A stretch of 64,000 bases of DNA from an uncultured Clostridia bacterium (GCA_944386385.1 CALXAV010000009.1:3615-67614); one strand, 5' to 3'; shown: positions 15,288-47,856, counted from the stretch's first letter. Notes: generated by a model from the letters alone, not told the origin. Program-made: numbers and translations.

Positions 15288-15324
15288 ATAAGCCAGCAAG
15301 CATGAAAAATACTTGCTGGCTTAT
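15288..15324 (-). terminator. Stem-loop downstream of GC-rich orphan 1
   Basis: ATAAGCCAGCAAG / CTTGCTGGCTTAT: perfect 13-bp stem, 11-nt loop, about 30 nt after the stop. Confidence 0.6.
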
Positions 15325-15356
15325 CCTAAAAAGGCTTAGTTTGAGAAGAAGCACCT

Positions 15357-15770
15357 CTACCAATCAGCCATAATATGGTTCGGCTTTTCCTTCTGTGTCC
15401 TGCGTTGCTCCTCGGCCACTTGTACTATTTCCGAGTCGCTCCAGCAAGAAACTGCACCATCGAAGAGGAAAGCATACACTGCGAAGTGATGATTCCACAA
15501 GTTATCTACTTCGTAGATGCCTTCGATTTGCACCTTCATCTCTGGGCTACCGCAAGGCCAAGCGACCTTGATTGGGCCATGCCGATAGTCGACTTCGAGC
15601 TGTAGCTCATTGCCGTCATGCCTGGACGTCTCCTTGATGCGGAATCGATTGCCCGCAAAGTGGAGGCATACAGGAATGACTCCGTCCATGGTCTTGTGGT
15701 TTGATAGAAAGATCCTCACTCCCTTCTTCTCTCGAATCGCCTTTTCAATTACTTGCATTGCCGTGGACAT
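15357..15770 (-). CDS. Orphan protein 1 (137 aa) of foreign, GC-rich composition
   Basis: ORF with SD AAGGAAGGAGG. Hand count of 15361-15420 gives 31/60 GC. No recognisable family. Confidence 0.65.
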   Translation of the reverse strand: MSTAMQVIEKAIREKKGVRIFLSNHKTMDGVIPVCLHFAGNRFRIKETSRHDGNELQLEVDYRHGPIKVAWPCGSPEMKVQIEGIYEVDNLWNHHFAVYAFLFDGAVSCWSDSEIVQVAEEQRRTQKEKPNHIMADW

Positions 15771-15787
15771 TTGTCCTCCTTCCTTGC

Positions 15788-15817
15788 AGTATAAACTGCA
15801 AACGACAAAACTGACAA
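15788..15817 (-). promoter_or_regulatory. Putative sigma-A promoter for orphan 1
   Basis: Minus strand TTGTCA, 18 nt, TATACT, about 20 nt upstream of the SD. Confidence 0.45.
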
Positions 15818-15866
15818 TGTAATTTAATTATAACATTATTTTCCATAAATTTCAATTAAATGTATA

Positions 15867-15890
15867 AAGACCACCTAATTTGGTGGTCTT
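15867..15890 (-). terminator. xerD terminator
   Basis: AAGACCACC / GGTGGTCTT stem followed by a T-rich run on the minus strand. Confidence 0.7.
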
Positions 15891-15894
15891 AATC

Positions 15895-16776
15895 CTAAGC
15901 TCTTGGATGAGCTTTTTTATAAATATCTTTTAATCCTCCATCTTGGAATTGCATATATACTTGTGTTGAAGATATATCTGAATGTCCAAGCATTGTTTGT
16001 ATTGCTTTTAAATCTGCTCCATTTTGTAAAAGATGTGTTGCAAATGAATGTCTTAGAACATGTGGTGTTATATCTTTTGTTATATGAGCTTGTTCTTTAT
16101 AATATTTGATAATTTTCCAAAATCCTTGTCTTGTTAATCTTCCTCCATTAACATTAACAAATAATGCTTTTTGATTTTCATCTTTTATTAATATATCTCT
16201 TGCATCTTCTATATATTCTTTTAACGCATTTAAAGCCATTGTTCCAAGTGGTATTGTTCTTTGTTTATTTCCATTAGTACAAGTTACATAACCTTCCTCT
16301 AAGTTTACATCATCAATATCTAACGAAATGATTTCTGTAACTCTCATACCTGTTGCATAAGCAAATTCTAACATTGCTTTATCACGAGTTCCTTTTAAAT
16401 CAACATCTTTTGGTTGGTCTAATAATAATTCAACTTCCTTTGATGTCAATACACTTGGTACTCTTTTCTCTATTTTAGGTGATTTTACATTTGCTGTTGG
16501 GTCTCTCTTTACTTTTTTTCTTTTTAGTGCAAATTGATAAAATGATCTTATTGATGCAATTGCTCTAGATATACTAGATGCTTTTTTACCATTTTCTTGT
16601 AATTCTTTTATATATAAATTAATATCATCTTCACTTACTTTATTATAATGAAGACTATATGACTCCAAAAATCTTCTAAATTGTTTTAAGTCTCTCTTAT
16701 ATGATTGCAATGTATTGTCTGATAATTTCTTTTCATTTTCTAAAAATTCGAAAAAAAGTTTTAATTGTCTCTCCAT
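15895..16776 (-). CDS. xerD: Tyrosine recombinase XerD
   Basis: LSDNTLQSYKRDL, ATGMRVTE, HVLRHSFATHLL, LGHSDISSTQVY. Lies next to spoIIM, as in Bacillus. Confidence 0.8.
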   Translation of the reverse strand: MERQLKLFFEFLENEKKLSDNTLQSYKRDLKQFRRFLESYSLHYNKVSEDDINLYIKELQENGKKASSISRAIASIRSFYQFALKRKKVKRDPTANVKSPKIEKRVPSVLTSKEVELLLDQPKDVDLKGTRDKAMLEFAYATGMRVTEIISLDIDDVNLEEGYVTCTNGNKQRTIPLGTMALNALKEYIEDARDILIKDENQKALFVNVNGGRLTRQGFWKIIKYYKEQAHITKDITPHVLRHSFATHLLQNGADLKAIQTMLGHSDISSTQVYMQFQDGGLKDIYKKAHPRA

Positions 16777-16882
16777 TCTCTATCTACCCCTAATCTTTAT
16801 TAATCTATTTACATAAACTATATATGTTATATCAAACAATTAAAAAAATGTAAATACATTTTTCTATATTTTTACATATTTT

Positions 16883-17518
16883 TTAGAAATATTTAATAAC
16901 AAGTTTCAAAATATTCGTAGAAATAAATACTTCTATTAACGAAGCCACTATCATAACTATTAGCATAATTAATGAAAAAATTGTATGTCTTACTATTTCT
17001 AATTTTATGTTTTCTTTTGCACTATTCTTTACAATTGATTTATATAATTTAAATCCACTTACTGCAATAGCTAAGATTGCTGGTATTAACAATAAACTTG
17101 GTAATAATAAATTAATTAATACAAATATTAACCCTTTAGACATCCCCATAATTGTAACACAAACTGATATAGTATATCCAAAACAAAAACCTCTATAAAT
17201 CATTATTCCAAAAACAACAGGTATTCCTATAACAGTAGTTCCAAAAAACCATATTATAAATGCAAGAATTACATTCTGCATTACACTTGTTTTTAATAAG
17301 CTAATATTATCTAAACTTTCAGTCTGTTTCATTTTTTCTATAAAGTTGTTCAAATATTCTTGTACTTCTGTTTTTTGACTATCGCCTAAATTATTTACAA
17401 AAAAGACTCCTAAAAATATTCCAATTATAAATAACAATGTTACAATTATATATTCTTTTTTATTATTTAGTATATGTTGTTTTATTGTTTTCTTAATTCT
17501 TAGACCTTTTTCCTTCAT
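16883..17518 (-). CDS. spoIIM: Stage II sporulation protein M
   Basis: 211-aa polytopic protein with SpoIIM-like topology, adjacent to xerD. Confidence 0.65.
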   Translation of the reverse strand: MKEKGLRIKKTIKQHILNNKKEYIIVTLLFIIGIFLGVFFVNNLGDSQKTEVQEYLNNFIEKMKQTESLDNISLLKTSVMQNVILAFIIWFFGTTVIGIPVVFGIMIYRGFCFGYTISVCVTIMGMSKGLIFVLINLLLPSLLLIPAILAIAVSGFKLYKSIVKNSAKENIKLEIVRHTIFSLIMLIVMIVASLIEVFISTNILKLVIKYF

Positions 17519-17579
17519 AAAAAATCTCCTTATCGTTTATACATAATGTGTATTCGATAAAGAGATTTTTAGAACTTTT

Positions 17580-18779
17580 TTATTTATTTTTTACAGAAAC
17601 TTTTCCGTAGTTTCCTCCTCCACCTGAGTGTACTTCGCAATTTCCATTTCTTGCATTTTCTATATTATTCGCAATCTTACTTCCTACAACTGCTTCTATA
17701 TCATCTTTTGATAATTTGTGTAATATATTCATCTCTGTTTCAAAAGCATCTAATAATTTTTGAACAGTTTTCCCGCCAACTCCCGGAATAAATCCTAGTG
17801 GTATTTGATAAATATAAGGTGGTCTGTTTTCTGGACTTTTTGTTTCTTTTTTATCTTTTATTAATTCTATTCTATCAAAAACTCCAAAAGTAACATTTTT
17901 CCCACCACAATAAGGACATTTATCTACAGGTTCTTTTGTTTCTATTGATTTATTACAATCATCACAATATGTCCTATGATATTTTCCAAGTTTTGGGTCT
18001 AATCCGTAGTTTGCTAAAATTTTTCTACCGTCTTCATTTTTCAAAGCTTTTACTATTTCTTTAAAAGATATATCTTCTACTTGCATTTTATTATATTCTC
18101 TTGCAATCTTTGGAAGAGAATGTGCATCTGAATTTGTTAAAAATGTTCTTGTCTCTAATTCTGATATTTCATCTGCTAAAAATGTATCTGAACTTAATCC
18201 TAATTCTACTGCAAATATTTTTTCAAATTTTTCTTTAAATACATATTCTAATCTATCTGTACAATTTCCATAATAGCTCTTATATGGTGTAAATATATGT
18301 GCTGGAACTAATATTCCATTATATCTTTCTACTATATCTATTAAATCATATCCTGATAAATCTGTCCTTTGTGTGCTTAATGTTATATTTTTTAGATGTG
18401 TACTTAATTCTTTTGAAAATCCTTTTATATCACTTAAATGCGGAAAATAACATAAATTATGTGCTGCGCCTGACTTTCCACTTCTTCCTTTTTCAGAAGT
18501 TTCTACTTCACTTCCAAGAATTATACATACTTTATCTTTATATATAATTCCGCCATCTTCTAGTTCATAAGCCTCACCCGTCTTCAAAAAATTCTCTATA
18601 TCTTCTATTACATATGGTGATGCACAATCTATAATTCCTACAACATTTATCCCTTTTCTTTCTGCACATTCTTTTGCAATGTTTGCAAAATTAAGTGACC
18701 TTGCTGCTGTTATTTTTATTGGTTTTCCACTTTCGCTTCTTCCTATGTGTACATGTAAATCTGCAAATATTTCGTACAT
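17580..18779 (-). CDS. Endonuclease Q-like PHP-domain protein (TIGR00375 family)
   Basis: ADLHVHIGRS N-terminus plus the CDDC..CPYCGG zinc motif and a C-terminal helix-hairpin-helix-like region. Confidence 0.55.
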   Translation of the reverse strand: MYEIFADLHVHIGRSESGKPIKITAARSLNFANIAKECAERKGINVVGIIDCASPYVIEDIENFLKTGEAYELEDGGIIYKDKVCIILGSEVETSEKGRSGKSGAAHNLCYFPHLSDIKGFSKELSTHLKNITLSTQRTDLSGYDLIDIVERYNGILVPAHIFTPYKSYYGNCTDRLEYVFKEKFEKIFAVELGLSSDTFLADEISELETRTFLTNSDAHSLPKIAREYNKMQVEDISFKEIVKALKNEDGRKILANYGLDPKLGKYHRTYCDDCNKSIETKEPVDKCPYCGGKNVTFGVFDRIELIKDKKETKSPENRPPYIYQIPLGFIPGVGGKTVQKLLDAFETEMNILHKLSKDDIEAVVGSKIANNIENARNGNCEVHSGGGGNYGKVSVKNK

Positions 18780-18782
18780 TTT

Positions 18783-19580
18783 CTACTCCTCTACTTTTTC
18801 TCCTACTCCTTCTCCTAAATGATTCATTATTTTCTTTGCTGTTTCTTCACTAAATAACGGTCTATTAGGATTTTCTAGATTATTAAACATCTCTTTAGAT
18901 ATTTTTTCTTTTTGTTTTTCTACTAATTTATCAATTTTTGGTTCATAACTATATACTACTTCTTTTATAAAACTAATTACATCATCTGTTTCATTATGTA
19001 TTTTTACTAATCTTTTTATAGCTGTCATATTTACTAATTCACTTACATTTATCTGTTCCATAAATTTTACAAAATCAATAAATGTTTCCATATAGCGATT
19101 ATATTTATCTTTTAAATTTCTATATTCTAAAAGTACTAATGCTTCATCTGGTTTGAATCCAATTCTTTCTGGTCTATCTAAAAGCATTCCACCAAATTGA
19201 TCAACTAATTCTAATATATCGCTTTCTCTTTCTCTTGGATTGCTATTACTATATCTATTTACTTCTTCACATATTTTGCAAAATCTTTTATTAAATCCTA
19301 TTGTAGATAAATACTCTGCGCCTCTTTTCGCATAGTTATGAATGCTTTCAATGTCTTGGGCATTGTCAATCTTTTTTACATTGCAAAGTAAGCTTGCTGT
19401 TAATACTAAGTTTGAATCAACTTCGATTTTTGAATAGTTTAAAAACAATCTCACTAATTCTGTTTTAAAAATAACAGATTTATCAAAAAATATTTTATTT
19501 CTTTTTGCTAAGTAATATACAATTTCCATTTTAGAAGCTAAATCTTTTTCTTCTAATATGTATTCTGCAAAAGTATCCAT
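18783..19580 (-). CDS. Hypothetical protein (265 aa)
   Basis: ORF. Start moved to MDTFAEY after RBS AAGGGGGA. Confidence 0.5.
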   Translation of the reverse strand: MDTFAEYILEEKDLASKMEIVYYLAKRNKIFFDKSVIFKTELVRLFLNYSKIEVDSNLVLTASLLCNVKKIDNAQDIESIHNYAKRGAEYLSTIGFNKRFCKICEEVNRYSNSNPRERESDILELVDQFGGMLLDRPERIGFKPDEALVLLEYRNLKDKYNRYMETFIDFVKFMEQINVSELVNMTAIKRLVKIHNETDDVISFIKEVVYSYEPKIDKLVEKQKEKISKEMFNNLENPNRPLFSEETAKKIMNHLGEGVGEKVEE

Positions 19581-19698
19581 ATAAATCCCCCTTAGGAAAA
19601 ATTCTCTTTCGTCCAATATCATACACTTTTATTATACTTAAATAGACAAAATATTTCAATCTTTTTTCTTAATGTAATAAAAATGTAATATTAAACAT

Positions 19699-19739
19699 AG
19701 CGAAAGCCACACAAATCCAATAATTGTGCGGCCTTCGCT
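19699..19739 (-). terminator. Stem-loop downstream of GC-rich orphan 2
   Basis: 16-bp stem. The two mismatches on the plus strand become G-U pairs in the minus-strand RNA, which supports minus-strand function. Confidence 0.55.
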
Positions 19740-19766
19740 TTCCTACTTATGATCGTTATTTCGATT

Positions 19767-20120
19767 TTAATGACAAACAGTCCTTGCCACGTACCTATCG
19801 AAATTCTTGCCTGCATATTCGATGTAACGATCATATGGTTCAGAATCTTTAAATTCTAACCCCACATGCCCATCCTTGATGCAGAACTCGTATTGCCCTT
19901 TCGGATAATAGTCCGAAATAGGTCTTGTGCTTGTAAGGAAAAACTTCTTTGCATTGACAACCTTTCCCTGATCAATCCGTACAAAAACGTGATTGAATCT
20001 TACAACAGGACATATCGCTGCAAATGGGATTCTCCCTTTTGCTCCCTTCTCAACTACCATTGTTAGATACACCGAAGAAATCGGCATATTCTGATAGTCT
20101 TCTAAAGTAGGTTTCTTCAT
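19767..20120 (-). CDS. Orphan protein 2 (118 aa) of elevated GC composition
   Basis: Start at MKKPTLEDYQ with SD AGGAGAAAA. Hand counts of 42-47% GC for 19861-19980. No recognisable family. Confidence 0.6.
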   Translation of the reverse strand: MKKPTLEDYQNMPISSVYLTMVVEKGAKGRIPFAAICPVVRFNHVFVRIDQGKVVNAKKFFLTSTRPISDYYPKGQYEFCIKDGHVGLEFKDSEPYDRYIEYAGKNFDRYVARTVCH

Positions 20121-20212
20121 TTTTCTCCTAAAACACTCGTTTCCAATAAAGCCTATATTAACCTGCAAAAACAGGAGAACAGAATTATATGCTATTTTTT
20201 TAGCATAACTAT

Positions 20213-20241
20213 ATTATATCACACTTTTTATAGAATTCCAA
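20213..20241 (-). promoter_or_regulatory. Putative sigma-A promoter for orphan 2
   Basis: TTGGAA, 17 nt, TATAAT, with an upstream TG (TGATATAAT). Confidence 0.55.
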
Positions 20242-20251
20242 GTTATGTAGA

Positions 20252-20695
20252 TTATAATTCTTTTATTGCATTTCTTGCCAGCTCATCACATCTATTATTT
20301 AATTCGTTATCACTATGTCCTTTTACTTTTATAAAGTTAACTTTATGTATTTTTGTTAGATTATATAGCTCTTCCCATATTTCTTTATTTTTTACAGGTT
20401 CTTTTGATGCTGTTTTCCAATTATTTTTTACCCAATTATATATCCACCCTTGTGTAAAACAATTCACTATATATGCACTATCACTATGTAAATCAACTTC
20501 ACAAGGATACTTTAGTATCTTTAAAGCCTCTACAACTGCTATTAACTCCATTACATTATTTGTTGTATCTCTTTTCCCTCCTGATATTTCTTTTCTATTC
20601 TTATTATAAATTAATACTGCTGCCCAACCTCCTGGTCCTGGATTCCCAGAGCAAGCTCCGTCTGTATATATTGTCACTTTTTCCATATTATTCAT
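20252..20695 (-). CDS. rnhA: Ribonuclease HI
   Basis: [39 protein letters not shown]. Confidence 0.9.
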
Positions 20696-20773
20696 ACCTT
20701 TCCATTGTTTTTTTCTCCATTTTATGGTAATATTATAACAGTAATTATAAAAATATACAAGGAAGGAATTAGC

Positions 20774-22006
20774 ATGGGAAAAGTTTTAGGTATCGTATGT
20801 GAATATAACCCATTTCATAATGGCCATTTGTATCATTTAGAGCAATCTAAAAAAGCAACTGGCTCTAATTATGTTGTGGCAATTATGAGTGGGAATTTTA
20901 CCCAGCGTGGTAGTACTGCTATTATTGATAAATGGTCAAGAACAGAGGCTGCTCTTAAATGTGGTGTTGATTTAGTAATAGAACTTCCTGTTCTATATGC
21001 TACATCTAGTGCTGAAAATTTTGCATATGGCGCTATTCATATTTTAGACTCACTTAAAATTGTAGATTATCTTGGATTTGGTAGTGAAACTTCTGACATT
21101 GAAGCATTAAGTAATATCGCAGATATATTACATAAAGAGCCTAAAGTTTATAAAAATATTTTAGCAGATGAATTAAAAAAGGGCGATTCTTTTCCTAAAG
21201 CAAGAGAGAATGCTTTATTAACATATTTAGGTAATGATAAAAGATATGCCAATGTTCTTTCTTCTCCTAACAATATTTTAGGAATTGAATATATAAAGGC
21301 TTTAAAAAAATATAAAAGTAATATCACTCCTATTTCTATTACAAGGTTTGAAGCAGGTTATAATGATTTAAATTATTCTGGAAATATTGCAAGTGCTACT
21401 GCTATTAGAAATATTATTAAAAATGGTAACTTTGATATTGCTAGAAGATTACTTCCACCACCTAGCTATGGTATTTTAATGGATAATATTAAACAAGGTC
21501 ATATAATTCCTGATTTGTCTGTTTTTGAAAGACAAATTATTTATAATTTAAGAAAAATGTCAACAGAAGAAATTGCTGAACTTCCAGATGTAACAGAAGG
21601 ATTAGAATTTTCTATAAAAAAAGTAGCAAATTCATGTAATACTATTCATGAGTTTTTAACACTTATAAAATCTAAGAGGTACACTTCTACTAGATTACAA
21701 AGGATTTTATTATATTCTTTACTTGGTATTACAAAAAAAGATATAGCTTTATCTAAAAAAGTTAATCCTTATGTTAGAGTTTTAGGTTTAAATAACAGAG
21801 GAAAATTTATAATATCAGAAATTGCAAAGGCAAATCCAAGACTTGAAATAATTACTTCTGTTAAGCGTTTTACTGACAAATCTACTAATAAGAATTTAAA
21901 ACTTATGCTTGATAAAGATATCTTCGCAACTAATGTATATACTATTGGTTATGATTTCAATTCTTGTAATAACTTAGACTTTACTAAAAAAATTGTTACA
22001 ATATAA
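20774..22006 (+). CDS. tmcAL: tRNA(Met) cytidine acetate ligase TmcAL (YlbM/UPF0348)
   Basis: [23 protein letters not shown]-terminus. Start at 20774 after RBS AAGGAAGG. Confidence 0.8.
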
Positions 22007-22046
22007 AAAAGATTACTAAAAATATAATTTAGTAATCTTTTATTTT
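22007..22046 (+). terminator. tmcAL terminator
   Basis: AAAAGATTACTAAA / TTTAGTAATCTTTT stem followed by a T-run. Confidence 0.7.
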
Positions 22047-22084
22047 AACATTTAAACAAAAAAAGATACTTTTAAGTATCTTTT

Positions 22085-22395
22085 TGGTGGGCAGGGAAGG
22101 ATTCGAACCTTCGTACTCAAATGAGAACAGATTTCTTACTACTATAGTTTTCACTACCAATTTCTTGTTTGTAGTCTGGACTTTCTCTTTATCTTAAAAT
22201 TAAGATACTAGGTATAAAGTCTCTACACTCGGAAATTTCTTTCCTAGCTCGGGATTGCCATCAGCCTTACCTGTTAAGGATTCCCCGAATTAGCCTAGTT
22301 ATCATCATACAATCACTTGTATGAGCTGCAAATTTAGGTTTTGGAATAAACCAAAGACTACAGTCTGCCGCCTTTAGCCACTCGGCCACCTACCC
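22085..22395 (-). tRNA. tRNA-Tyr(GUA), class II, interrupted by an intron in the anticodon loop
   Basis: 5' exon GGGTAGGTGGCCGAGTGGCTAAAGGCGGCAGACTGT (22395-22360) plus 3' exon AAATCTGTTCTCATTTGAGTACGAAGGTTCGAATCCTTCCCTGCCCACCA (22134-22085) fold into an 86-nt cloverleaf with loop CTGTAAA, a long variable arm and an encoded CCA. Confidence 0.85.
22135..22359 (-). ncRNA. Group I intron (IC3-like) within tRNA-Tyr
   Basis: Core blocks AAACCTAAATTTGCAG, GATGGCAATCCCGAGCTAGG, GTGTAGAGACTTTATACC and AAAGAGAAAGTCCAGACTAC parallel the Anabaena tRNA-Leu and Azoarcus tRNA-Ile introns. U precedes the 5' splice site and the intron ends in G. Confidence 0.75.
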
Positions 22396-22407
22396 TTATA
22401 TAAAAAA

Positions 22408-22484
22408 TGGTGCTCCCTCAAGGATTCGAACCTTGGACCCACTGGTTATGAGCCAGTTGCTCTGACCAACTGAGCTAAGGGAGC
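22408..22484 (-). tRNA. tRNA with anticodon CAU (elongator Met or lysidine-modified Ile2; not an initiator)
   Basis: GCTCCCTTAGCTCAGTTGGTCAGAGCAACTGGCTCATAACCAGTGGGTCCAAGGTTCGAATCCTTGAGGGAGCACCA. Full cloverleaf, G1-C72 pair, encoded CCA. Confidence 0.9.
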
Positions 22485-22511
22485 ATGTGCTGTTTACTTA
22501 GCACAGATTAA

Positions 22512-22540
22512 AGTATAAACCATTTTTATATAATTGTCAA
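22512..22540 (-). promoter_or_regulatory. Promoter of the tRNA(CAU)-tRNA(Tyr) operon
   Basis: Minus strand TTGACA, 17 nt, TATACT, about 25 nt upstream of the first tRNA. Confidence 0.65.
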
Positions 22541-22588
22541 TAGTTTTTCTTAATTTTTTTATAGTAATTTTAATTGCGTTGAATCCAA

Positions 22589-22639
22589 GTGAACTACCCA
22601 TTGTCTAAAGCCAATGGGATTGCAGTTGCCGTATTTCAA
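22589..22639 (-). mobile_element. 51-bp miniature derivative (left-end/right-end fusion) of the IS200/IS605-type element at 24108-25492
   Basis: Minus strand TTGAAATACGGCAACTGCAATCCCATTGGCTTTAGAC matches the IS left end, and AATGGGTAGTTCAC matches the IS right end. They are joined at the CCCATTGGCTTTAGAC motif shared by both ends. Confidence 0.7.
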
Positions 22640-22724
22640 AATGCACATTTGTAAAAATTTTTTCTGTATATACGATTAAATATGCTCGTTTGCTTACTTT
22701 TTTGAACAGAAACGAATCTTTTAC

Positions 22725-24023
22725 TTATTTGTCAGCGTATTTCACGTCTTCTTCACTATATTCTTCTGCTCTTAGCCCTAACCTTGTTTTCATATAAATT
22801 TGTAATAATATAGAAGATATAAAAAATATAATTCCCATAATTATAAACCCATAATCTATTGTAGCAATTGTTAATACAAATGACCCTATTGAATTTATAA
22901 TAACTCTTTCAAAATTACAATATACATTATTCATGGAATATATTGTTGGAAGTACTTTTGAATTTGTAAAATTATTTATATACCTCTTATATAAAATGGT
23001 ATATATACCATCTAATATATACATTAAGATTGATATACCAACAATTATTAATAATTTAAACTCTATCCTTATTTTTATTAAACTCATAATTCCAATCAAT
23101 ATAAATACTATGGCAATAAGAATTGACATATATGTCAAGGATTTATTTTTATACCCATCATTATATTTATTTGCAAATTTTCCACTATAACCTTTAATAA
23201 TAGTTTGTATCATCGAAATTATTCCTATAATACTTGCTGAAACTCCTATATTTTTAAACAACGTCATTTGATATGTTGAAAATAATGTGGTCACTCCCCA
23301 AATGAAACCTACAGATAACAATAATGCCCTTATTCTTCCTGACTTAATTGTAAATAAAAATCCATCTTTTAACTCTTTAACATAATTTGTTATCTTTTTT
23401 ATCTCTTGTTCTTTTGTAACCTTCTCTTCTATCTCTTTAAATTTTATAGATATAAACTCTGATATTATTGCACATAACAAACACAAGTACATTGGAATAT
23501 ACGGATTTATATCATACAGAAATCCTGCTGCAATAGTAGCAATTGCTGAGAATATACAAAATCCAAAATATGCTTTTCCATCTATTCTCGAAAATATATC
23601 TGACTTTTTATTTGAATTTGGAATTGATTCATTGAGTATAGGTGCAAATGAAATATTTTTCATAGAAAAAGCTGCTGCACTTAAAATTTGCGCGAGCATA
23701 ATTTGCGTAATTCCATTTCCCAGTATAAAAACCATAATAGAGATTATATTAATACCATCTCCTATTATTAGTGTTTTTTTATTTCCCACTTTACTATTTA
23801 TAAGTGTCGATAATACTAAAAATATTATTGATGTAAGTGCAAATACTGTTGAAAGTAAAACTATGCTTGCATCTGAAATATTTTTTACTTGTGAAAAATA
23901 CAAGACTTTTATTCCATAATAAAATAACATATCATATCCAAAGATTATATAATATGGATATAGTCTCATATTACTCTTTCTCTTTTTTGCTTCTATCAAA
24001 ATTTCTTCTTTTACTTTCGTCAT
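22725..24023 (-). CDS. MFS-type transporter (432 aa, about 12 TM segments)
   Basis: Polytopic ORF with two 6-TM halves separated by a charged loop. Confidence 0.6.
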   Translation of the reverse strand: MTKVKEEILIEAKKRKSNMRLYPYYIIFGYDMLFYYGIKVLYFSQVKNISDASIVLLSTVFALTSIIFLVLSTLINSKVGNKKTLIIGDGINIISIMVFILGNGITQIMLAQILSAAAFSMKNISFAPILNESIPNSNKKSDIFSRIDGKAYFGFCIFSAIATIAAGFLYDINPYIPMYLCLLCAIISEFISIKFKEIEEKVTKEQEIKKITNYVKELKDGFLFTIKSGRIRALLLSVGFIWGVTTLFSTYQMTLFKNIGVSASIIGIISMIQTIIKGYSGKFANKYNDGYKNKSLTYMSILIAIVFILIGIMSLIKIRIEFKLLIIVGISILMYILDGIYTILYKRYINNFTNSKVLPTIYSMNNVYCNFERVIINSIGSFVLTIATIDYGFIIMGIIFFISSILLQIYMKTRLGLRAEEYSEEDVKYADK

Positions 24024-24037
24024 CTCCTCATCCTCTG

Positions 24038-24106
24038 TTAATATCGGTCATTAGCATATCTTAAATCTTCTTTATTATACTCTTCTGGCCTTAACCCCAC
24101 TCTTGT
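24038..24106 (-). pseudogene. 3' tail of a second, degraded MFS paralog, cut off by the IS insertion
   Basis: Translates to TRVGLRPEEYNKEDLRYANDRY*, parallel to the C-terminus KTRLGLRAEEYSEEDVKYADK* of the intact neighbour. Confidence 0.65.
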
Positions 24107-24107
24107 T

Positions 24108-24300
24108 GTGAACTACCCATTGTCTAAAGCCAATGGGCTTCCTGCTTCATAGACCTCGTAACCTACTATCTCCACAGGCGTTAATTTGGGCAGTCCCAGC
24201 CCTATATTTTTCTCTATGCTATTTTTCTTAATCCTTCCATTAGGATATTTGTCGCAGCATTTATATCCCTGTCATGCTTTGCTTTGCACTTAGGACATGT
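24108..24300 (-). ncRNA. Predicted TnpB guide RNA (omega/reRNA) scaffold region; 5' boundary approximate
   Basis: By analogy with characterised TnpB elements, the RNA spans the tnpB 3' end to the right-end boundary. The structured 106-nt non-coding tail ends in a hairpin plus TAGTTCAC. Confidence 0.35.
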
Positions 24301-25317
24301 CCATTTTCTGACTGCCAAATCTTTTGTATCTACATTCTGATATCCACAAACAGAACACAACTGACTACTGGCATAAAAAGTATCTATTTTTATATATTTT
24401 CTTCCATTCCATATAGCCTTATATTCTAATTGTCTTGTAAGCTCATTCCATGATGCATCTATTATTGATTTTGCTAGATGATGATTTTTTACCATGTTCT
24501 TTATCTGTAAATTTTCTGTAACTATCACTTGGTTTTCGCTGATAATCTTATTAGAAACTTTATGCAGATAATCTTTTCTAATGTTATTTATTTTCTCGTG
24601 ACATAATGCTATTTCTTTTTTCTTCTTTTGGTAATTTTTACTTCCTTTTTTCTTATGTGCTAACTCTCTTTGTTTCCTTGAAAGTTTTCTCTCGTATTTC
24701 TTTATTGTCTTTGGATTTTCATATTTCTCTCCTTCTGATGTAATACATAAATCCTTAATTCCCAAATCTAATCCTATATTTTGTTTTGCATGTGGTAATT
24801 CTTCATGCTCTGTTTCTACTAGTATTGACACATAGTATTTCCCACTTGGAACTTGCGATACTGTTACTGATTTTATCTGCCCATTAAATTTTCTGTGTAA
24901 TTTTGATTTTACTTTCTTTAATTTTGGTAGTTTTATTTTTCCATTCTCATAATCTACAGTTATATTTCCATTAGTATAATTCGTAGTATATGATTTATGG
25001 TTATCATGCTTACTTTTAAACTTTGGATACCCTGCATTTTCTTTGAAAAATTTCTGATAGGCAGTATCCATATTATATATTGCATTAGTTAAAGCAAACT
25101 TATCCACATCCTTTAGCCATTCGTATTCTTTCTTTAACTTTCTGTTACAATAATTGTTGCAGTCTATTTTACTAACAGTTTTCTTCTCTTTCTCATAACA
25201 TTCTTTTCGATATGCTAATGTTTGATTATAAACAAAACGGCAACAGCCAAATGTTTTTACTATCTGTTCTTTCTGCTCTTTATTGGGATATATTCTATAT
25301 TTATATGTTTTTAACAT
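24214..25317 (-). CDS. tnpB: RNA-guided endonuclease TnpB (IS605 OrfB family)
   Basis: MLKTYKYRIYPNKEQ N-terminus, GLDLGI (RuvC-I), VTENL, CSVCGYQ..CPKCKAKHDRDINAA zinc finger and RuvC-III. Start at 25317 after RBS AAAGGAGGTGA. Confidence 0.85.
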   Translation of the reverse strand: MLKTYKYRIYPNKEQKEQIVKTFGCCRFVYNQTLAYRKECYEKEKKTVSKIDCNNYCNRKLKKEYEWLKDVDKFALTNAIYNMDTAYQKFFKENAGYPKFKSKHDNHKSYTTNYTNGNITVDYENGKIKLPKLKKVKSKLHRKFNGQIKSVTVSQVPSGKYYVSILVETEHEELPHAKQNIGLDLGIKDLCITSEGEKYENPKTIKKYERKLSRKQRELAHKKKGSKNYQKKKKEIALCHEKINNIRKDYLHKVSNKIISENQVIVTENLQIKNMVKNHHLAKSIIDASWNELTRQLEYKAIWNGRKYIKIDTFYASSQLCSVCGYQNVDTKDLAVRKWTCPKCKAKHDRDINAATNILMEGLRKIA

Positions 25318-25488
25318 TTTAACTGTCACCTCCTTTTTTCTATACTTACATAAAAAAATAATATGACATTGTAGTAAATATTTTTTTCTGTTTTTTGATT
25401 TATCAATACCGATAGTATAACACAGAAAATATACTTTTGGCAACCTCGACCAATCGTCTAAAGCCAATGGGATTGCGGTTGCCTTATT

Positions 25489-25683
25489 TCAATTAGTATA
25501 GTAATTACAATAAATATAACTCCCATTATAACCATATTTTACATCAACTAAAGTCAATACAAAAGAACCTATCGCTGTAATTATAACTCTTGCTATATTC
25601 CAATATATATTTGTCATTGTATATATTGAAGGATATAACTTCATATTAAGTTTTCTCAAATGAGCTTCCTCAATTTTTTTCAT
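25489..25683 (-). pseudogene. Internal fragment of the degraded MFS paralog (also frameshifted)
   Basis: LYPSIYTMTNIYWNIARVIITAIGSFVLTL parallels LPTIYSMNNVYCNFERVIINSIGSFVLTI of the 22725-24023 gene. There is no 5' part, because dprA ends at 25741. Confidence 0.65.
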
Positions 25684-25740
25684 ATGCTACACTCCTTGTT
25701 TTCTTTTGTTACTACTAATTTTAATATAACATTTTTCATA

Positions 25741-26646
25741 TTATATTTCAACATCATTATATGTAGTTATTAATTTTGCTCCTTGTTTTATTAAATCATT
25801 TGTTCCTACTGAGTTTATTGAATTTATATTTCCTGGCACAACATATATATCTTTTCCTTGTTCTAATGCAAAATCTACTGTTATTAATGTCCCACTTTTT
25901 TCTTTAGCTTCTATTACAACCACTCCATTACTTAGCCCACTAATAATTCTATTTCTAGCAGGAAAATGCATTTTTTGTGGTTTTGTTCCTATTGGATACT
26001 CAGAAATAACACAGCCACCTAATTCTATTATTTTCTGTTCTAACATTTGATTTTCTTTTGGATATACTATATCTAATCCATTTCCTACAACTGCAATAGG
26101 TTTTCCACAGCTCACATCATTATCCACATGTGGATAACTTTTCTCTAAAAGTGCATAACCATTTCCAATATGTGAATAACTATCTACGCCTTTTGCTAAT
26201 CCACTTATTATATTGATTCCTTTTTTTGATAAGTTGTAACCAAAATATTTTGCAGCTTTTTTACCATATTCACTTGCATCTCTGCAACCTATTATTGCTA
26301 TTGCCTTATTATTTAAAATTTCTTTATTTCCTTTTACATATAAACTAATTGGTGAATCATATATTTGTTTTAATTTTTGAGGATAATTTTTATCTATAAT
26401 CGAAATAATATTTATATTATTTCTTTCCATGTATGAAACGTGTTTATCTACCGCTTCTTTTACTTTTCTATCTGAAATATTATCCACAGTCTGTGTTCCT
26501 ATTCCTCTTATTTTTAATAATTCACTTTTTCTTAAATAATATATTCGTTTAGGATTTCTATATATTTCTAATAATTTTTTCTTCCTTTTATTTCCTAATC
26601 CTTTTATTAAACTAAACCATATCCAATATTTTTTATCTTCTACCAT
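25741..26646 (-). CDS. dprA: DNA processing protein DprA
   Basis: IAIIGCRDASEYG, SGLAKGVDS, FPARNRIISGLS, VVIEAKEKSGTLIT. Confidence 0.9.
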   Translation of the reverse strand: MVEDKKYWIWFSLIKGLGNKRKKKLLEIYRNPKRIYYLRKSELLKIRGIGTQTVDNISDRKVKEAVDKHVSYMERNNINIISIIDKNYPQKLKQIYDSPISLYVKGNKEILNNKAIAIIGCRDASEYGKKAAKYFGYNLSKKGINIISGLAKGVDSYSHIGNGYALLEKSYPHVDNDVSCGKPIAVVGNGLDIVYPKENQMLEQKIIELGGCVISEYPIGTKPQKMHFPARNRIISGLSNGVVVIEAKEKSGTLITVDFALEQGKDIYVVPGNINSINSVGTNDLIKQGAKLITTYNDVEI

Positions 26647-26673
26647 ATACTTCCTCCTTTAAACATAAAAAGA

Positions 26674-26693
26674 GCATTATTAAAAAATAATGC
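26674..26693 (-). terminator. folD terminator
   Basis: GCATTATT / AATAATGC stem followed by TCTTTTT on the minus strand. Confidence 0.55.
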
Positions 26694-28274: not shown

Positions 28275-28283
28275 AATGCGAAA

Positions 28284-31059: not shown

Positions 31060-31195
31060 ATTTTTTACCTCCGTACATTATTCTACTTCTTATATTATAA
31101 CATATTTATAAAAAAAAATAAAGATATAAGTATTTTTTTATTTAAATTTTATCAATAAAAATTTAATATTATAAAATTACTCTTATATTTAAAAG

Positions 31196-31226
31196 GAACG
31201 CTGGCGGAAATTTTCCGCCAGCATTC
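31196..31226 (-). terminator. Stem-loop downstream of GC-rich orphan 3
   Basis: GCTGGCGG(AAA) / (TTT)CCGCCAGC stem, followed on the minus strand by CCTTTTAAAT. Confidence 0.65.
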
Positions 31227-31239
31227 CGAGGGAAGGGTA

Positions 31240-31560
31240 TCACATTCCCATCTGGAGTCTTCTAAGCTCTCCTCGAACACTCTCCTCCTTATTTTGCAGT
31301 TCACGCCTCATGGGGTTGATCATCTCGGCAACGAAGAGCTCATCGCCGTTGGAAAGAGCTTGTCGCTCCATCTCGCCCAAGACCCTCTTGTTGTAGTCAG
31401 AAAAATCCTTAAGAGCGTTCAAACACTCTACAATCTCCCGACTAATGTCGCGCCTTGAACGAGCCTTGCTCTGAGCCATGTGTAGAGCTAAGTCTACTTT
31501 CTTCTCTAGCTCCATTCCAGTTGCAACAATACTGGAAAACTCATTGGTTGTCATTGACAT
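31240..31560 (-). CDS. Orphan protein 3 (106 aa, predicted all-helical) of foreign, GC-rich composition
   Basis: SD GGAGGGAAG. Hand counts of 48% and 57% GC for 31261-31380. No recognisable family. Confidence 0.65.
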   Translation of the reverse strand: MSMTTNEFSSIVATGMELEKKVDLALHMAQSKARSRRDISREIVECLNALKDFSDYNKRVLGEMERQALSNGDELFVAEMINPMRRELQNKEESVRGELRRLQMGM

Positions 31561-31597: not shown

Positions 31598-31626
31598 ATT
31601 ATACCACATTTACAAATTTATGTAAA
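31598..31626 (-). promoter_or_regulatory. Putative sigma-A promoter for orphan 3
   Basis: TTTACA, 17 nt, TATAAT, with an extended -10 (TGGTATAAT). Confidence 0.55.
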
Positions 31627-45973: not shown

Positions 45974-47206
45974 CTAATTATTATTTAATAACTCTCTATA
46001 TGCAACAGTTTTCTCATAATTGTCAGCAGCTTCCTCTTCGCTTAATGCTTTATTATATACTCTTATAGCATAAGATTTTATTTTCATAAAATAAGGTATA
46101 TTTGCACTCGTTGTTTTCCCAATTAATATTGGATATTCCTTATTACTTAAATATTCTTTATAATGTTCCACATATTCTGGATTAAACTTATCTTCTGCAA
46201 CTTTTTTTCCATTTAATAATACAAAGAAACTTCCATCATCTTTTAATGAAAATGTGACATAAGTATCTCCCAAACAAGCTTCTTCCATTATCGGAATATG
46301 AAAATCATTTCCATATGTCGGACATTGATATTTAGTTCCAGTTTCTATTCCTTGATAAAACGTTCCATTTATTTGAAAAATAATTTTATTATAATGATTA
46401 GCTATATTTCCAACTACATATTTAAATGCAAATTTCGAACCTTCGCTCGGGCCTTTATAAACATTTCCTAGTCTACTACTTTCTGTTTGTAAATTTCCAT
46501 ATGTTTCTATTGTTATTCCATCTTCAGAGAAATCACTATCACTATATATTTCTATATAATCATCTTCTCCATCAAAATTAAAATCTTCTCCAGAGAATCC
46601 ACTTATTACATTTCCTTCTTCATCTTTTTCTACTCCATTAAATCCGTATAAAATAGCATCTCCCCAACTATTTGAATCTTCCATATTTAATGGGTCTAAA
46701 TTGAATACTAATCCATCTTTTACTGCTAGATTTGCCCCATATGCTAATTCTATGAAACTATCTTCTTCTAATTGTATCGTCTCTCCTGTTTCTTCGTTAT
46801 ATAGCCAATTATATTGTGCTTCTCCATAATCTAATAAATTTGTTCCCTTTGGTATATATCTCCAATCATTTCCATAAGTTTCTTTTGTATCTTTTATCAT
46901 TATGATACTCCACTTATTTCCATTAGTTATATTTCTATCATACAGTTTTGTTCCTATATCATATTTTTCATTATCTTCATCTAAATAATGCATTTGCATT
47001 ATTAATTGTACTCCTTCTTTTTCACTTGATACCTCTGTTAGCTTTTTAGCCAATTGTGCTTGGGTTAATATTCCATTTTCTCCTGTTAACATTGATATTG
47101 ATACTCCTGCTAATATTACTAAAACTACTATTGTTATTACTAATGCTATTAATGTTATCCCAGATATTCTTTTTTTCCCTTTCTCCTTTTTTGTTACTTC
47201 CATCAT
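45974..47206 (-). CDS. Second prepilin-like N-terminus / LamG-like protein (410 aa), paralog of 34304-35782
   Basis: KRISGITLIALVITIVVLVILAGVSISMLTGENGIL is nearly identical to the N-terminus of the other copy. C-terminal IRVYNKALSEEEAADNY. Confidence 0.6.
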   Translation of the reverse strand: MMEVTKKEKGKKRISGITLIALVITIVVLVILAGVSISMLTGENGILTQAQLAKKLTEVSSEKEGVQLIMQMHYLDEDNEKYDIGTKLYDRNITNGNKWSIIMIKDTKETYGNDWRYIPKGTNLLDYGEAQYNWLYNEETGETIQLEEDSFIELAYGANLAVKDGLVFNLDPLNMEDSNSWGDAILYGFNGVEKDEEGNVISGFSGEDFNFDGEDDYIEIYSDSDFSEDGITIETYGNLQTESSRLGNVYKGPSEGSKFAFKYVVGNIANHYNKIIFQINGTFYQGIETGTKYQCPTYGNDFHIPIMEEACLGDTYVTFSLKDDGSFFVLLNGKKVAEDKFNPEYVEHYKEYLSNKEYPILIGKTTSANIPYFMKIKSYAIRVYNKALSEEEAADNYEKTVAYRELLNNN

Positions 47207-47304
47207 TATCTCTCCTTTGTTCTATTATAGAACAATTTTAACATTTCTTTGTAATAAAATCAATAAAAATGTTCAAAAATAGAACAAAAGATAAGGAGTT
47301 TTGT

Positions 47305-47544
47305 ATGAAAAAGTCTAAAATCACTAATAACATATATAATGTTTGTGGAAAAAACATAAAAAAAATAAGAAAAGAACAAAAAGTAACCCAAGATGAGCTA
47401 TGTGCTAGAATGCAAGTAATGGGATATCAAATAAGCCGTTCTGATATTTCTAAACTCGAAAATGGTAAAAAATTCATTACAGATTTTGAAATCGTTGGCT
47501 TTTCTAAAGCCTTAAAAGTATCTATTTTAGACTTATTTGAGTAA
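47305..47544 (+). CDS. XRE-family HTH transcriptional regulator
   Basis: IKKIRKEQKVTQDELCARM..ISRSDISKLENG. Start at 47305 after AAGGAG. Confidence 0.75.
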   Translation: MKKSKITNNIYNVCGKNIKKIRKEQKVTQDELCARMQVMGYQISRSDISKLENGKKFITDFEIVGFSKALKVSILDLFE

Positions 47545-47549
47545 AAATA

Positions 47550-47578
47550 TTGTTTATTATCAAAAATCATTGTATAAT
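47550..47578 (+). promoter_or_regulatory. Putative sigma-A promoter for orphan 4
   Basis: TTGTTT, 17 nt, TATAAT (preceded by TG). Confidence 0.5.
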
Positions 47579-47624
47579 CTATTTAGACAGTTGTATTAGG
47601 CATTTTACCTAGAAAGGATTTTTC

Positions 47625-47792
47625 ATGACTGTGAATTACAACAAAGGCGTCATTCATCTGACTTTTATAAGGATTTCTGGTAATGGTGTTTACGAATACC
47701 AAAATCCTGAGATTAAACCACCCAAGCAAAAGAAGCCCAAAAATGATGATGCCAAGAATCTATTCAACTCGTTTTGGAAGGAGACACATTAA
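47625..47792 (+). CDS. Orphan micro-protein 4 (55 aa) of elevated GC; below the ORF-track cutoff
   Basis: Own translation MTVNYNKGVIHLTFIRISGNGVYEYQNPEIKPPKQKKPKNDDAKNLFNSFWKETH*. SD AGAAAGGA. Hand counts of 37-38% GC against a much lower background. Confidence 0.5.
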   Translation: MTVNYNKGVIHLTFIRISGNGVYEYQNPEIKPPKQKKPKNDDAKNLFNSFWKETH

Positions 47793-47810
47793 CATTTTAG
47801 TTATGATGCC

Positions 47811-47844
47811 AAACGAGAAGCTAAGAACGTTTAGCTTCTCGTTT
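47811..47844. terminator. Perfect 14-bp stem-loop, probably a bidirectional terminator (orphan 4 and the 49358-47857 operon)
   Basis: AAACGAGAAGCTAA gaacgt TTAGCTTCTCGTTT followed by TATTTAT. Confidence 0.7.
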
Positions 47845-47856
47845 TATTTATGAATA

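What the first reader, a model, noticed from the sequence alone, without database searches (positions are those of the whole stretch)
15288..47848. Four compositionally foreign single-gene cassettes scattered between core genes
Four short ORFs stand out by eye from the surrounding DNA: 15357-15770, 19767-20120 and 31240-31560 on the minus strand, and 47625-47792 on the plus strand. My hand counts of 60-nt lines give 48-57% GC for cassettes 1 and 3, 42-47% for the core of cassette 2, and 37-38% for cassette 4. A flanking AT-rich line counted 15% GC, and the window as a whole looks about 25-30% GC by eye. Each ORF sits alone in a gap between unrelated housekeeping genes. Each has its own near-consensus -35/-10 promoter (17-18 nt spacing) in host-like AT-rich DNA, a good SD, and a strong stem-loop right after the stop. 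I see no integrase, transposase, tRNA attachment site or flanking direct repeats. The four products resemble no family I know and do not resemble each other. Four independently expressed foreign micro-genes at separate loci within 32 kb does not look like an ordinary horizontal-transfer island. I cannot explain this pattern. Possibilities are dispersed parts of one system, cargo of an unrecognised micro-mobile element, or small anti-defence, toxin or immunity-type proteins.
Basis: partly seen in the sequence, partly recalled or inferred. Interest (0 to 1): 0.8.

Follow-up and report, generated by a model that had tools for sequence, protein, structure and literature searches.

The report
Moron-like GC-rich single-gene cassettes
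Four tiny genes of foreign, GC-rich composition, three with a near-consensus promoter of their own and all four ending in a terminator hairpin, are real accessory insertions between core genes of an AT-rich uncultured Clostridia chromosome; they look like phage 'morons' outside any phage, arrived at different times, are not one system, and their source and function are unknown.

Summary
The core observation holds. The four ORFs have GC3 of 0.60, 0.39, 0.54 and 0.43, against 0.13±0.04 (max 0.24) for 62 other ORFs. They are protein-coding, not RNA genes. All four recur at the same loci in many independent metagenome assemblies. They are four unrelated single-gene units, and cassettes 1-3 have strong sigma-A promoters with an extended -10.

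- Cassette 1 belongs to an uncharacterised small-protein family. Its whole unit (promoter, structured leader enclosing the SD and AUG, ORF, terminator) recurs at several loci in three AT-rich hosts, sometimes in tandem.
- The XerD-Alg14 slot holds different paralogue types in sister species.
- Cassette 2's slot is empty in one close relative.
- Cassette 3's slot is empty in 44 outgroup loci.
- A calibrated decay model fits cassette 2 as an old, vertically inherited acquisition. The window's cassette 1 arrived after the species split.

The cassettes share no leader or end motifs and do not co-occur, so they are not one system. No convincing mobile-element signatures or phage or plasmid homologues were found. 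The closest concept is the phage moron, here in the core chromosome. Function and donor are unknown. No GC-rich donor lineage was seen, which remains a puzzle.

The parts
15827..15855 (-). Cassette 1 promoter: TTGAAA, 17 nt spacer, TATAAT with an extended -10 TG
   Evidence: 11 of 12 matches plus TG. The -35 and -10 elements are conserved in family members.
15752..15814 (-). Cassette 1 leader RNA. An outer helix (GYCGN paired with codons 3-4, NCGGC) encloses a stem-loop, the SD AAGGAGG and the AUG.
   Evidence: RNAalifold prediction. 95.8% of cells are paired, 5 of 10 pairs have compensatory changes and 0 of 500 shuffles reach the covariation score. The covariance model scores 76.5 bits at this site, and it is the only hit in the window.
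15357..15770 (-). Cassette 1 ORF, 137 aa, GC3 0.60. Type A member of an uncharacterised small-protein family.
   Evidence: Composition. Present on 22 contigs. About 14 family clusters at 27-50% identity. AF2 core pLDDT about 88 with a disordered C-terminal tail. No fold match in PDB or BFVD.
15287..15325 (-). Cassette 1 terminator hairpin, preceded by the conserved TAAGCCTTTTT motif
   Evidence: 17-nt arms, 94% complementary. Conserved across family members.
20213..20241 (-). Cassette 2 promoter: TTGGAA, 17 nt spacer, TATAAT with TG
   Evidence: The promoter and leader are 83-85% identical to the sister species, more than the ORF.
19767..20120 (-). Cassette 2 ORF, 117 aa, GC3 0.39
   Evidence: Composition. 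Orthologues at 58-66% identity sit in the same slot. The slot is empty in L042. AF2 pLDDT 89: six strands plus a C-terminal helix. Only weak PH/EVH1-like fold hits.
19700..19743 (-). Cassette 2 terminator hairpin. It aligns with the RNase H terminator of the empty site in L042.
   Evidence: Sequence and alignment.
31598..31626 (-). Cassette 3 promoter: TTTACA, 17 nt spacer, TATAAT with TG
   Evidence: 11 of 12 matches plus TG.
31240..31560 (-). Cassette 3 ORF, 106 aa (or 104 aa from the second ATG), GC3 0.54, probably helical (my reading of the sequence; it was not modelled)
   Evidence: Two alleles with omega 0.35. The HIT-sortase gap is 625 nt here and 65-256 nt in 44 outgroup loci.
31195..31227 (-). 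Cassette 3 intrinsic terminator (15 bp stem, 9 G-C pairs, T-run)
31089..31112 (.). Distal copy of the 24-nt direct repeat that brackets cassette 3. It is the -10 region of the sortase promoter. The other copy, at 31593-31616, is the cassette's own -10 region.
   Evidence: 21 of 24 identical, 504 nt apart. Only 5 such pairs exist in the 64 kb, about 0.05 expected per region.
47625..47792 (+). Cassette 4 ORF, 55 aa, GC3 0.43. It lies 80 nt downstream of a 79-aa XRE-type HTH gene.
   Evidence: Composition. The same 313-nt gap is present in all 8 same-species contigs, but gene callers did not call the ORF. Two alleles differ by 6 synonymous and 2 non-synonymous changes.
47811..47844 (+). Cassette 4 terminator (14-15 bp stem)

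Best explanation
The four ORFs are unrelated, horizontally acquired, self-contained single-gene transcription units. They are 'moron-like' accessory genes lodged in intergenic spacers of the core chromosome of a clade of uncultured, roughly 28% GC, spore-forming Clostridia.

Expression (inferred from anatomy). Cassettes 1-3 are transcribed from their own sigma-A-type promoters with an extended -10. Each mRNA starts with a small stem-loop, has a strong SD and ends at a hairpin terminator. In the cassette-1 family the leader folds so that an upstream GYCGN pairs with codons 3-4. This encloses the SD and AUG, which suggests mRNA stabilisation and/or control of translation initiation.

History (shown by comparison). 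The cassettes arrived separately and at different times.
- Cassette 2 was present before the split from the sister species. It has since descended vertically while decaying towards host composition.
- The window's cassette 1 is a different paralogue type from the one in the sister species' slot and arrived after the split.
- Cassette 3 is an insertion of about 500 nt found only in this species.
- Slot contents turn over by replacement, tandem duplication and loss.

Mechanism of turnover (inferred). Turnover is most likely by recombination, not by a dedicated transposase.

Products. All are small soluble proteins under purifying selection. Their function is not known. My best guess, which is weak, is niche- or conflict-related accessory proteins.
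For: Composition.

Coding, not RNA:
- GC1 > GC2 < GC3.
- dN/dS is 0.17-0.42.
- 6 synonymous against 2 non-synonymous changes in cassette 4.
- Omega 0.35 in cassette 3.
- No Rfam family.
- ORF-only RNA folding z-scores are ordinary.
- Confident AF2 folds.

Real, not artefact: 22-30 independent contigs with the same synteny.

Unit conservation and multiple loci:
- The cassette-1 unit is at XerD-Alg14 in the window clade, at AspS-GatC in L038/L043, and at three places in L139. It is tandem in L037, L044, L138 and L139.

Different paralogue types in one slot: the window's gene is 50% and 42% identical to P0016 and P0017, but only 28-35% identical to the positional counterparts.

Empty sites: slot 2 and slot 3.

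Arrival clock:
- Per-lineage retention of excess GC3 is 0.57 (95% CI 0.52-0.62).
- For cassette 2 the predicted strong/weak mismatch is 0.31 and the observed value is 0.35.
- Cassette 1 would need an ancestral GC3 of 0.95 if it predated the split.

Promoters and terminators. Leader structure. Moron definition: PMC3594210.
Against: - No donor has been found. Every context of the cassette-1 family I could examine is an AT-rich host. Nothing turned up in phage, plasmid or IMG/VR collections. Import from a GC-richer pool is therefore inferred, not observed.
- Cassette 4 lacks a scan-passing promoter and has no known relatives.
- Promoter-like matches are not enriched over chance in this DNA.
- Nothing has been shown about expression.
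- The polarised-substitution test for ongoing GC-to-AT decay was inconclusive.
- The decay model is a two-state approximation, calibrated on eight flanking genes of one species pair.
- Slots 1 and 4 were never seen empty.
Confidence: 0.6

Rival explanations
1. Native, long-resident genes whose GC-rich coding sequence is actively maintained. Possible reasons are escape from AU-targeting RNases, mRNA longevity, or rare-codon control of translation. On this view the composition is not a trace of foreign origin.
For: - All family members seen are in AT-rich hosts and all are GC-rich (GC3 0.31-0.76). No GC-rich donor lineage was found among 1.84 billion representative proteins.
- Three cassette-2 orthologues have nearly the same GC3, 0.36-0.39.
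- Polarised changes in cassette 2 are roughly balanced, 11 GC-to-AT against 14 AT-to-GC.
- The leader is more conserved than the ORF.
Against: - Passive decay from GC3 of about 0.57 reproduces cassette 2 quantitatively, so selection is not needed.
- GC3 varies widely within the family, as an age series would.
- Slots 2 and 3 are empty in relatives.
- ORF-level RNA structure is not unusual.
- The polarisation test is biased, because the flanking genes give an implausible AT-to-GC excess.
Confidence: 0.2
2. Cargo of an unrecognised micro-mobile element that inserts into intergenic spacers. One route would be Campbell-type integration of a small circle through short homology, which would leave long direct repeats.
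For: - The cassette-1 unit, with conserved ends (leader and TAAGCCTTTT-hairpin), is found at three or more unrelated loci and in tandem.
- Cassette 3 is bracketed by a 21/24 direct repeat, with 0.05 expected per region.
- An unrelated insertion of about 200 nt in strain L022 is likewise flanked by a 27-nt duplication.
- A TnpB element is present in the window.
Against: - There are no shared end motifs among the four cassettes.
- The repeats around cassettes 2 and 4 are at chance level.
- No terminal inverted repeats were found.
- No recombinase tracks the cassettes. XerD is the housekeeping copy beside SpoIIM, and TnpB is 4-7 kb from any cassette.
- With four cassettes tested, the cassette-3 repeat is only marginal (about 0.2 expected).
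Confidence: 0.12
3. Dispersed components of one functional system.
For: Similar architecture and proximity (32 kb). All four are fixed in this species.
Against: - L042 has cassette-1-type but no cassette 2.
- Cassette 3 was found only in this species.
- Different arrival times.
- No shared leader.
- Cassettes 1 and 2 show no protein relationship.
Confidence: 0.03
4. GC-rich structured RNA genes with fortuitous ORFs, or assembly or contamination artefacts.
For: In AT-rich genomes, GC-rich islands are usually RNA genes. Two other islands in the window are of this kind: a tRNA with a group I intron, and the TnpB 3' end.
Against: - No Rfam hit.
- Codon-position GC pattern.
- dN/dS below 1, and ORFs preserved down to 27% identity.
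- Excess of synonymous changes.
- ORF folding z-scores are ordinary.
- Dozens of independent assemblies agree.
Confidence: 0.02

Closest known systems
Phage 'morons' (Juhala/Hendrix; reviewed in PMC3594210)
   Same: A single gene with its own promoter and terminator. Its GC content differs from the neighbouring genes. It is recognisable as extra DNA between genes that are adjacent in related genomes, and it is spread by horizontal transfer with no known insertion machinery.
   Different: These cassettes lie between housekeeping genes of the bacterial core chromosome (XerD/Alg14, RNase H, HIT/sortase), not in a phage or prophage. No phage homologue was found. They are GC-richer than the host, whereas foreign DNA is usually AT-richer (my own knowledge: Daubin et al. 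2003; Rocha and Danchin 2002). One family recurs with a conserved structured leader.
Integron gene cassettes
   Same: Small single-ORF units of foreign composition that end in a hairpin-forming sequence. Slot content is variable and tandem arrays occur. Cassette 1 sits next to a tyrosine-recombinase gene.
   Different: Cassettes 1-3 carry their own promoters and the cassettes are dispersed, not arrayed at an attI site. The 3' hairpins are intrinsic-terminator-like. No conserved attC-type core motif was noticed by eye, though attC was not formally searched. The recombinase is the housekeeping XerD beside SpoIIM, 94-98% conserved and co-oriented with the cassette.
Ordinary horizontally acquired ORFans undergoing amelioration (Lawrence and Ochman model; my own knowledge)
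   Same: Atypical composition decaying towards the host's. Narrow distribution, relaxed purifying selection and unknown function. The calibrated decay fits cassette 2.
   Different: The cassettes are single genes of 0.3-0.6 kb, not islands, and they have no mobility genes. The same expression unit is re-used at several loci and in several hosts. No donor lineage is visible.
5' stem-loop mRNA stabilisers and SD-occluding leaders of Firmicutes (e.g. the ermC and aprE leaders, STAB-SD; my own knowledge)
   Same: A stem-loop lies immediately 5' of a very strong SD. Pairing that encloses the SD and AUG is supported by covariation.
   Different: There is no sequence relationship and no Rfam family. 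No ligand, protein or function has been shown.

Membership tests
Phage moron | Own promoter | tested here: met
   Met for cassettes 1-3: 11/12+TG, 10/12+TG and 11/12+TG. Cassette 4 has no promoter that passes the scan. These are consensus matches only; expression was not measured.
Phage moron | Own factor-independent terminator | tested here: met
   Canonical for cassettes 3 and 4. Cassettes 1 and 2 have long hairpins directly after the stop but no qualifying T-run.
Phage moron | Base composition differs from the surrounding genes | tested here: met
   GC3 z-scores of 6.9-12.6 against 62 ORFs in the window.
Phage moron | Extra DNA between genes that are adjacent in related genomes | tested here: met
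   Slot 2 is empty in L042. Slot 3 is empty in 44 outgroup loci. Slot 1 was always occupied, but by different paralogue types. Slot 4 could not be tested in relatives.
Phage moron | Resides in a phage or prophage genome | tested here: not met
   The flanking genes are XerD, SpoIIM, RNase H, TmcAL, HIT, sortase, LigA and ribosomal-protein genes. No phage or IMG/VR homologues were found. The cassettes therefore resemble morons but are not members in the strict sense.
Integron gene cassette | Promoterless ORF with an attC site, arrayed at attI next to an intI gene | tested here: not met
   Cassettes 1-3 have their own promoters. The cassettes are dispersed over 32 kb. They share no 3' motif. The adjacent recombinase is the conserved housekeeping XerD. 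attC structure was not formally modelled.
IS / MITE / IS200-IS605-type transposable element | Terminal inverted repeats or subterminal hairpins at both ends, target-site duplication, and a cognate transposase | tested here: not met
   No terminal inverted repeats were found. The repeats around cassettes 2 and 4 are at chance level, and only cassette 3 has an unusual 24-nt direct repeat. TnpB at 24214-25467 does not adjoin any cassette.
Known structured RNA families (Rfam 15) | Covariance-model match at or near the gathering score | tested here: not met
   Only tRNA-Met reaches the gathering score. There are no meaningful sub-threshold hits on any cassette.
Known defence, anti-defence or toxin-antitoxin families | Profile match in PADLOC, NCBIfam, Pfam or PHROGs, or a two-gene TA arrangement | tested here: not met
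   There are no hits apart from weak ones to the probably coiled-coil cassette 3 (Csa3 E=2.5e-4, Med28 E=3e-3), both far below any cut-off. All cassettes are single genes. Cassette 4 follows an XRE HTH gene, but no TA model matches it.

The most novel reading that the evidence does not exclude
A lineage-restricted class of autonomous GC-rich micro-gene units exists only in very AT-rich Clostridia. The cassette-1 family has a conserved leader that encloses the SD and AUG. Cassettes 2-4 are analogues. The units keep, or are repeatedly re-supplied with, non-host composition with no GC-rich donor anywhere in public data. That would mean either active maintenance of GC-rich coding sequence for a regulatory or RNA-stability reason, or an unrecognised vehicle or mechanism that shuttles promoter-to-terminator units between fixed intergenic slots.
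Probability: 0.2. Interest if true: 0.8.

Novelty: new variant of a known kind. Interest (0 to 1): 0.55.

Why it matters
- Foreign DNA in bacteria is normally AT-richer than its host and usually arrives as islands with mobility genes. Here single 0.3-0.6 kb expression units that are much GC-richer than the host sit between essential genes. They turn over between sister species and leave no machinery behind.
- This provides a tractable case for how 'moron'-type units enter genomes outside phages. It includes mapped empty and filled sites and a composition-based arrival clock.
- It defines at least two new small-protein families with confident but unmatched folds.
- It yields a candidate new cis-regulatory leader RNA supported by covariation.
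- The missing donor is a concrete open question. If the composition turns out to be actively maintained, that would be a new kind of constraint on gene sequence in AT-rich genomes.

Tried and rejected
1. Structured RNA genes. This was my first hypothesis, because GC islands in AT-rich genomes are usually RNAs. I rejected it on Rfam, coding signatures and ordinary ORF folding z-scores.
2. Simple in-place hyper-evolution of cassette 1. Rejected because the window's gene groups with members from other loci and hosts, not with its positional counterparts. Within the species it is unremarkable except for the C-terminal tail.
3. My own first amelioration estimate. I had argued that passive decay was impossible and that GC must therefore be selected. 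The empirically calibrated model replaced that argument: cassette 2 fits passive decay.
4. Parsimony polarisation of GC-to-AT against AT-to-GC changes. This was uninformative, because the flanking genes give an implausible AT-to-GC excess.
5. RCC1-repeat homology of cassette 1. The many large hits come from one short strand-turn motif (YAFLFDGAVSCW) that is seen only in type A. I treat it as at most a single-blade resemblance.
6. A relationship between cassettes 1 and 2 based on a shared G-x-IP motif. Rejected: hhalign probability 0.6%.
7. Fold matches. None is significant in PDB or BFVD.
8. Phage, plasmid or virome origin. No hits were found. One IMG/VR hit is a 12-residue low-complexity stretch.
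9. Back-translated protein scan of named genomes. The family is too divergent for it, so I used the invariant RBS and start-codon DNA motif instead.
10. Organism identity as segmented filamentous bacteria. The idea came from the GC content and a literature hit, but the paper does not use these assemblies, so I make no such claim.
11. Direct repeats around cassettes 2 and 4. These are at chance level.

Full report
OBSERVATION

The window is 28.0% GC. Their GC3 values are 0.601, 0.390, 0.542 and 0.429. The other 62 ORFs average 0.132 (sd 0.037, max 0.237), so the z-scores are 6.9-12.6.

A formal scan finds near-consensus sigma-70-type promoters with an extended -10 TG for cassettes 1, 2 and 3. 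Cassettes 1 and 3 are the only two sites in 17.5 kb that score 11/12 and also carry TG. No promoter passes the scan for cassette 4. Promoter-like sites as a class are not enriched in this DNA.

Cassettes 3 and 4 have canonical terminators. Cassettes 1 and 2 have long hairpins after the stop codon.

There is a TnpB gene at 24214-25467. There are two tRNA genes at 22085-22484. Cassette 1 abuts xerD.

ARE THEY GENES, AND ARE THEY REAL?

I first expected structured RNAs, but Rfam finds nothing on any cassette. The evidence points to protein-coding genes:
- The codon-position pattern is GC1 > GC2 < GC3.
- The ORFs are preserved down to 27% identity.
- dN/dS is 0.17-0.42.
- Cassette 4's two alleles differ by 6 synonymous and 2 non-synonymous changes.
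- Omega is 0.35 for cassette 3.
- ORF-only folding z-scores are ordinary: -0.9 to -3.1, against a background of -1.4±1.5.
- AlphaFold models are confident: pLDDT 89 for cassette 2, and about 88 for the cassette 1 core.

Proteins 1-3 occur on 22-30 independent contigs from several metagenome projects, always in the same synteny. Cassette 4's 313-nt gap is present in all eight same-species contigs examined, although gene callers missed the ORF. So these are not artefacts.

WHAT THE COMPARISONS SHOW

Cassette 1. An exhaustive search finds about 14 clusters of small proteins at 27-50% identity. The many RCC1-repeat hits are due to one short motif.

The whole unit is conserved at the DNA level, not only the protein. 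It comprises the -35 and extended -10 elements, a leader with a stem-loop, a nearly invariant AG(A/G)AAGGAGGACAAATGTCCA(C/A)GGC, the ORF, TAAGCCTTTT and a terminator hairpin.

The unit occurs at the following places:
- XerD-Alg14 in the window's clade. This clade comprises five GTDB species, all 'uncultured Clostridia bacterium' MAGs.
- AspS-GatC in a 32% GC organism.
- Three places within 10 kb in a 29% GC organism.
- Tandem pairs in L037, L044, L138 and L139.

In every host the family is far GC-richer than its neighbours: GC3 of 0.31-0.76 against 0.08-0.19.

The XerD-Alg14 slot holds different paralogue types in different species. The window has type A. Four sister lineages have type B. L044 has types C and B together. 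The window's protein is closer to members from other loci (50% and 42% identity) than to its positional counterparts (28-35%).

Cassette 2. Orthologues at 58-66% identity sit in the same slot in sister lineages whose flanking proteins are 85-98% identical. In L042 the slot is empty. There the RNase H stop codon is followed after about 35 nt by a terminator that aligns with cassette 2's terminator.

Cassette 3. It was found only in this species. The HIT-sortase gap is 625 nt here, against 65-256 nt (median 85) in 44 outgroup loci that keep the AlaX-HIT-sortase-LigA order.

TIMING

Cassette dS (1.3-2.8) exceeds flank dS (0.35-0.75). I first read this, together with the persistent GC3, as evidence for active maintenance of GC. 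A calibrated model changed that view.

At 1,863 synonymous third positions in eight flanking genes, the window and L031 differ in strong/weak class at 14.9% of sites. That implies each lineage has retained 57% (95% CI 52-62%) of any compositional excess since the split.

On that clock:
- Cassette 2 fits vertical descent from an ancestor with GC3 of about 0.57. The predicted mismatch is 0.31 and the observed value is 25/71 = 0.35. GC-rich sites also decay faster, which accounts for the inflated dS.
- The window's cassette 1 would need an ancestral GC3 of 0.95, so it must have arrived after the split. This agrees with the paralogue switch.

GC3 thus behaves as an arrival clock. Within the species, cassette 1 is unremarkable apart from its C-terminal tail, and cassette 3's dS is no higher than its neighbours'.

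ONE SYSTEM?

No. The evidence against is:
- L042 has a cassette-1-type gene without cassette 2.
- Cassette 3 was found only in this species.
- The arrival times differ.
- Cassettes 1 and 2 are unrelated.
- The four cassettes share no end motifs.
- A covariance model of the cassette-1 leader finds one copy per family gene and only one in the window.

THE LEADER

RNAalifold and explicit pair counts support a stem-loop: 100% of cells are paired and 4 of 5 pairs show compensatory changes. They also support an outer helix, in which an upstream GYCGN pairs with codons 3-4 (NCGGC) and so encloses the SD and AUG. This helix is 92% paired, with one UA-to-AU swap.

Overall, 95.8% of cells are paired, 5 of 10 pairs are compensatory, 0 of 500 shuffles reach the covariation score, and slid registers collapse. 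This is a candidate new cis-regulatory or stabilising element. Its function is inferred, not shown.

MOBILITY

No terminal inverted repeats, no shared ends and no tracking recombinase were found. The short repeats around cassettes 2 and 4 are at chance level.

Cassette 3 is bracketed by a 21/24 direct repeat formed by its own -10 region and that of the sortase promoter. About 0.05 such matches are expected per region, or about 0.2 over four cassettes. This hints that the insertion duplicated a host promoter, but it is not decisive.

No homologue exists in GenBank phages, PLSDB plasmids or IMG/VR.

COMPARISON WITH KNOWN THINGS

The anatomy matches the definition of phage morons: own promoter and terminator, deviant GC content, and extra DNA relative to related genomes (PMC3594210). 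The defining location in a phage genome is not met.

The cassettes are not integron cassettes, because cassettes 1-3 have their own promoters, the cassettes are dispersed and there is no IntI. They are not IS or MITE elements, known RNAs, or members of any curated defence or toxin-antitoxin family.

I therefore file them as moron-like chromosomal accessory units, a new variant of a known kind.

WHAT REMAINS UNEXPLAINED

- The function of all four proteins. Neither the cassette 1 model nor the cassette 2 model has a significant structural neighbour, and cassettes 3 and 4 were not modelled.
- The donor. The cassette-1 family has so far been seen only in AT-rich hosts, yet it reaches a GC3 of 0.76. 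The source pool is either unsampled or the composition is in part actively maintained. The data do not exclude the latter.

Noticed in passing
window 22085-22395 (-): A tRNA-Tyr(GTA) gene is interrupted at position 37 by a 225-nt intron. The intron matches Rfam Intron_gpI over the full model (40.8 bits, below the gathering score of 50; E=3e-9 in a 361-nt search). Default ARAGORN and the window-wide Rfam scans missed it. It explains the GC-rich island at 22201-22400 and lies directly downstream of tRNA-Met (22408-22484).
   Followed up: yes
window 24095-25467 (-), and 22590-22625: An IS200/IS605-family TnpB gene (417 aa, TTG start; NF038281, 507 bits) has a GC-rich 3' end that is probably its guide (omega) RNA or right end. 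The terminal ~35 nt (cccattggctttagacaatgggtagttcac) recur about 1.5 kb away beside the tRNA genes, which suggests a second solo end.
   Followed up: partly
L022 4206-4405 compared with L021 (same species; the spacer between sortase and ligA, about window 30285-30390): One strain carries an AT-rich insertion of about 200 nt immediately after the sortase terminator. It is flanked by a 27-nt duplication of that terminator hairpin (aaaggaatttataaaaattcctttatt). This is a MITE-like or Campbell-type insertion that is absent from the window.
   Followed up: partly
window 47305-47544 (+): A 79-aa XRE-type HTH gene lies immediately upstream of cassette 4 on the same strand and is divergent from the 410-aa gene at 45974-47206. 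It has weak matches to R-M control proteins and TA antitoxins (E about 1e-5 to 1e-7). Its GC3 (0.23) is among the highest in the background set.
   Followed up: no
window 9000-28300, compared with strain BRZ_NR (L047, L141): The two strains of the species form a recombination mosaic. Stretches of 0 mismatches (22160-18760, 28200-27000, 26300-25800) alternate abruptly with stretches at about 5% divergence.
   Followed up: partly
window 15357-15480 (residues ~97-112 of the cassette 1 protein): The motif HHFAVYAFLFDGAVSCWSD resembles a single RCC1-repeat blade closely enough to pull in 47 multi-repeat RCC1 proteins (E down to 9e-17, summed over repeats). Only type A family members have it.
   Followed up: partly
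window 15161-15360, compared with L047: An indel of about 97 nt lies just downstream of the cassette 1 terminator, in a region with a 25-nt tandem repeat (15223-15272). The window has the extra DNA and strain BRZ_NR lacks it.
   Followed up: no
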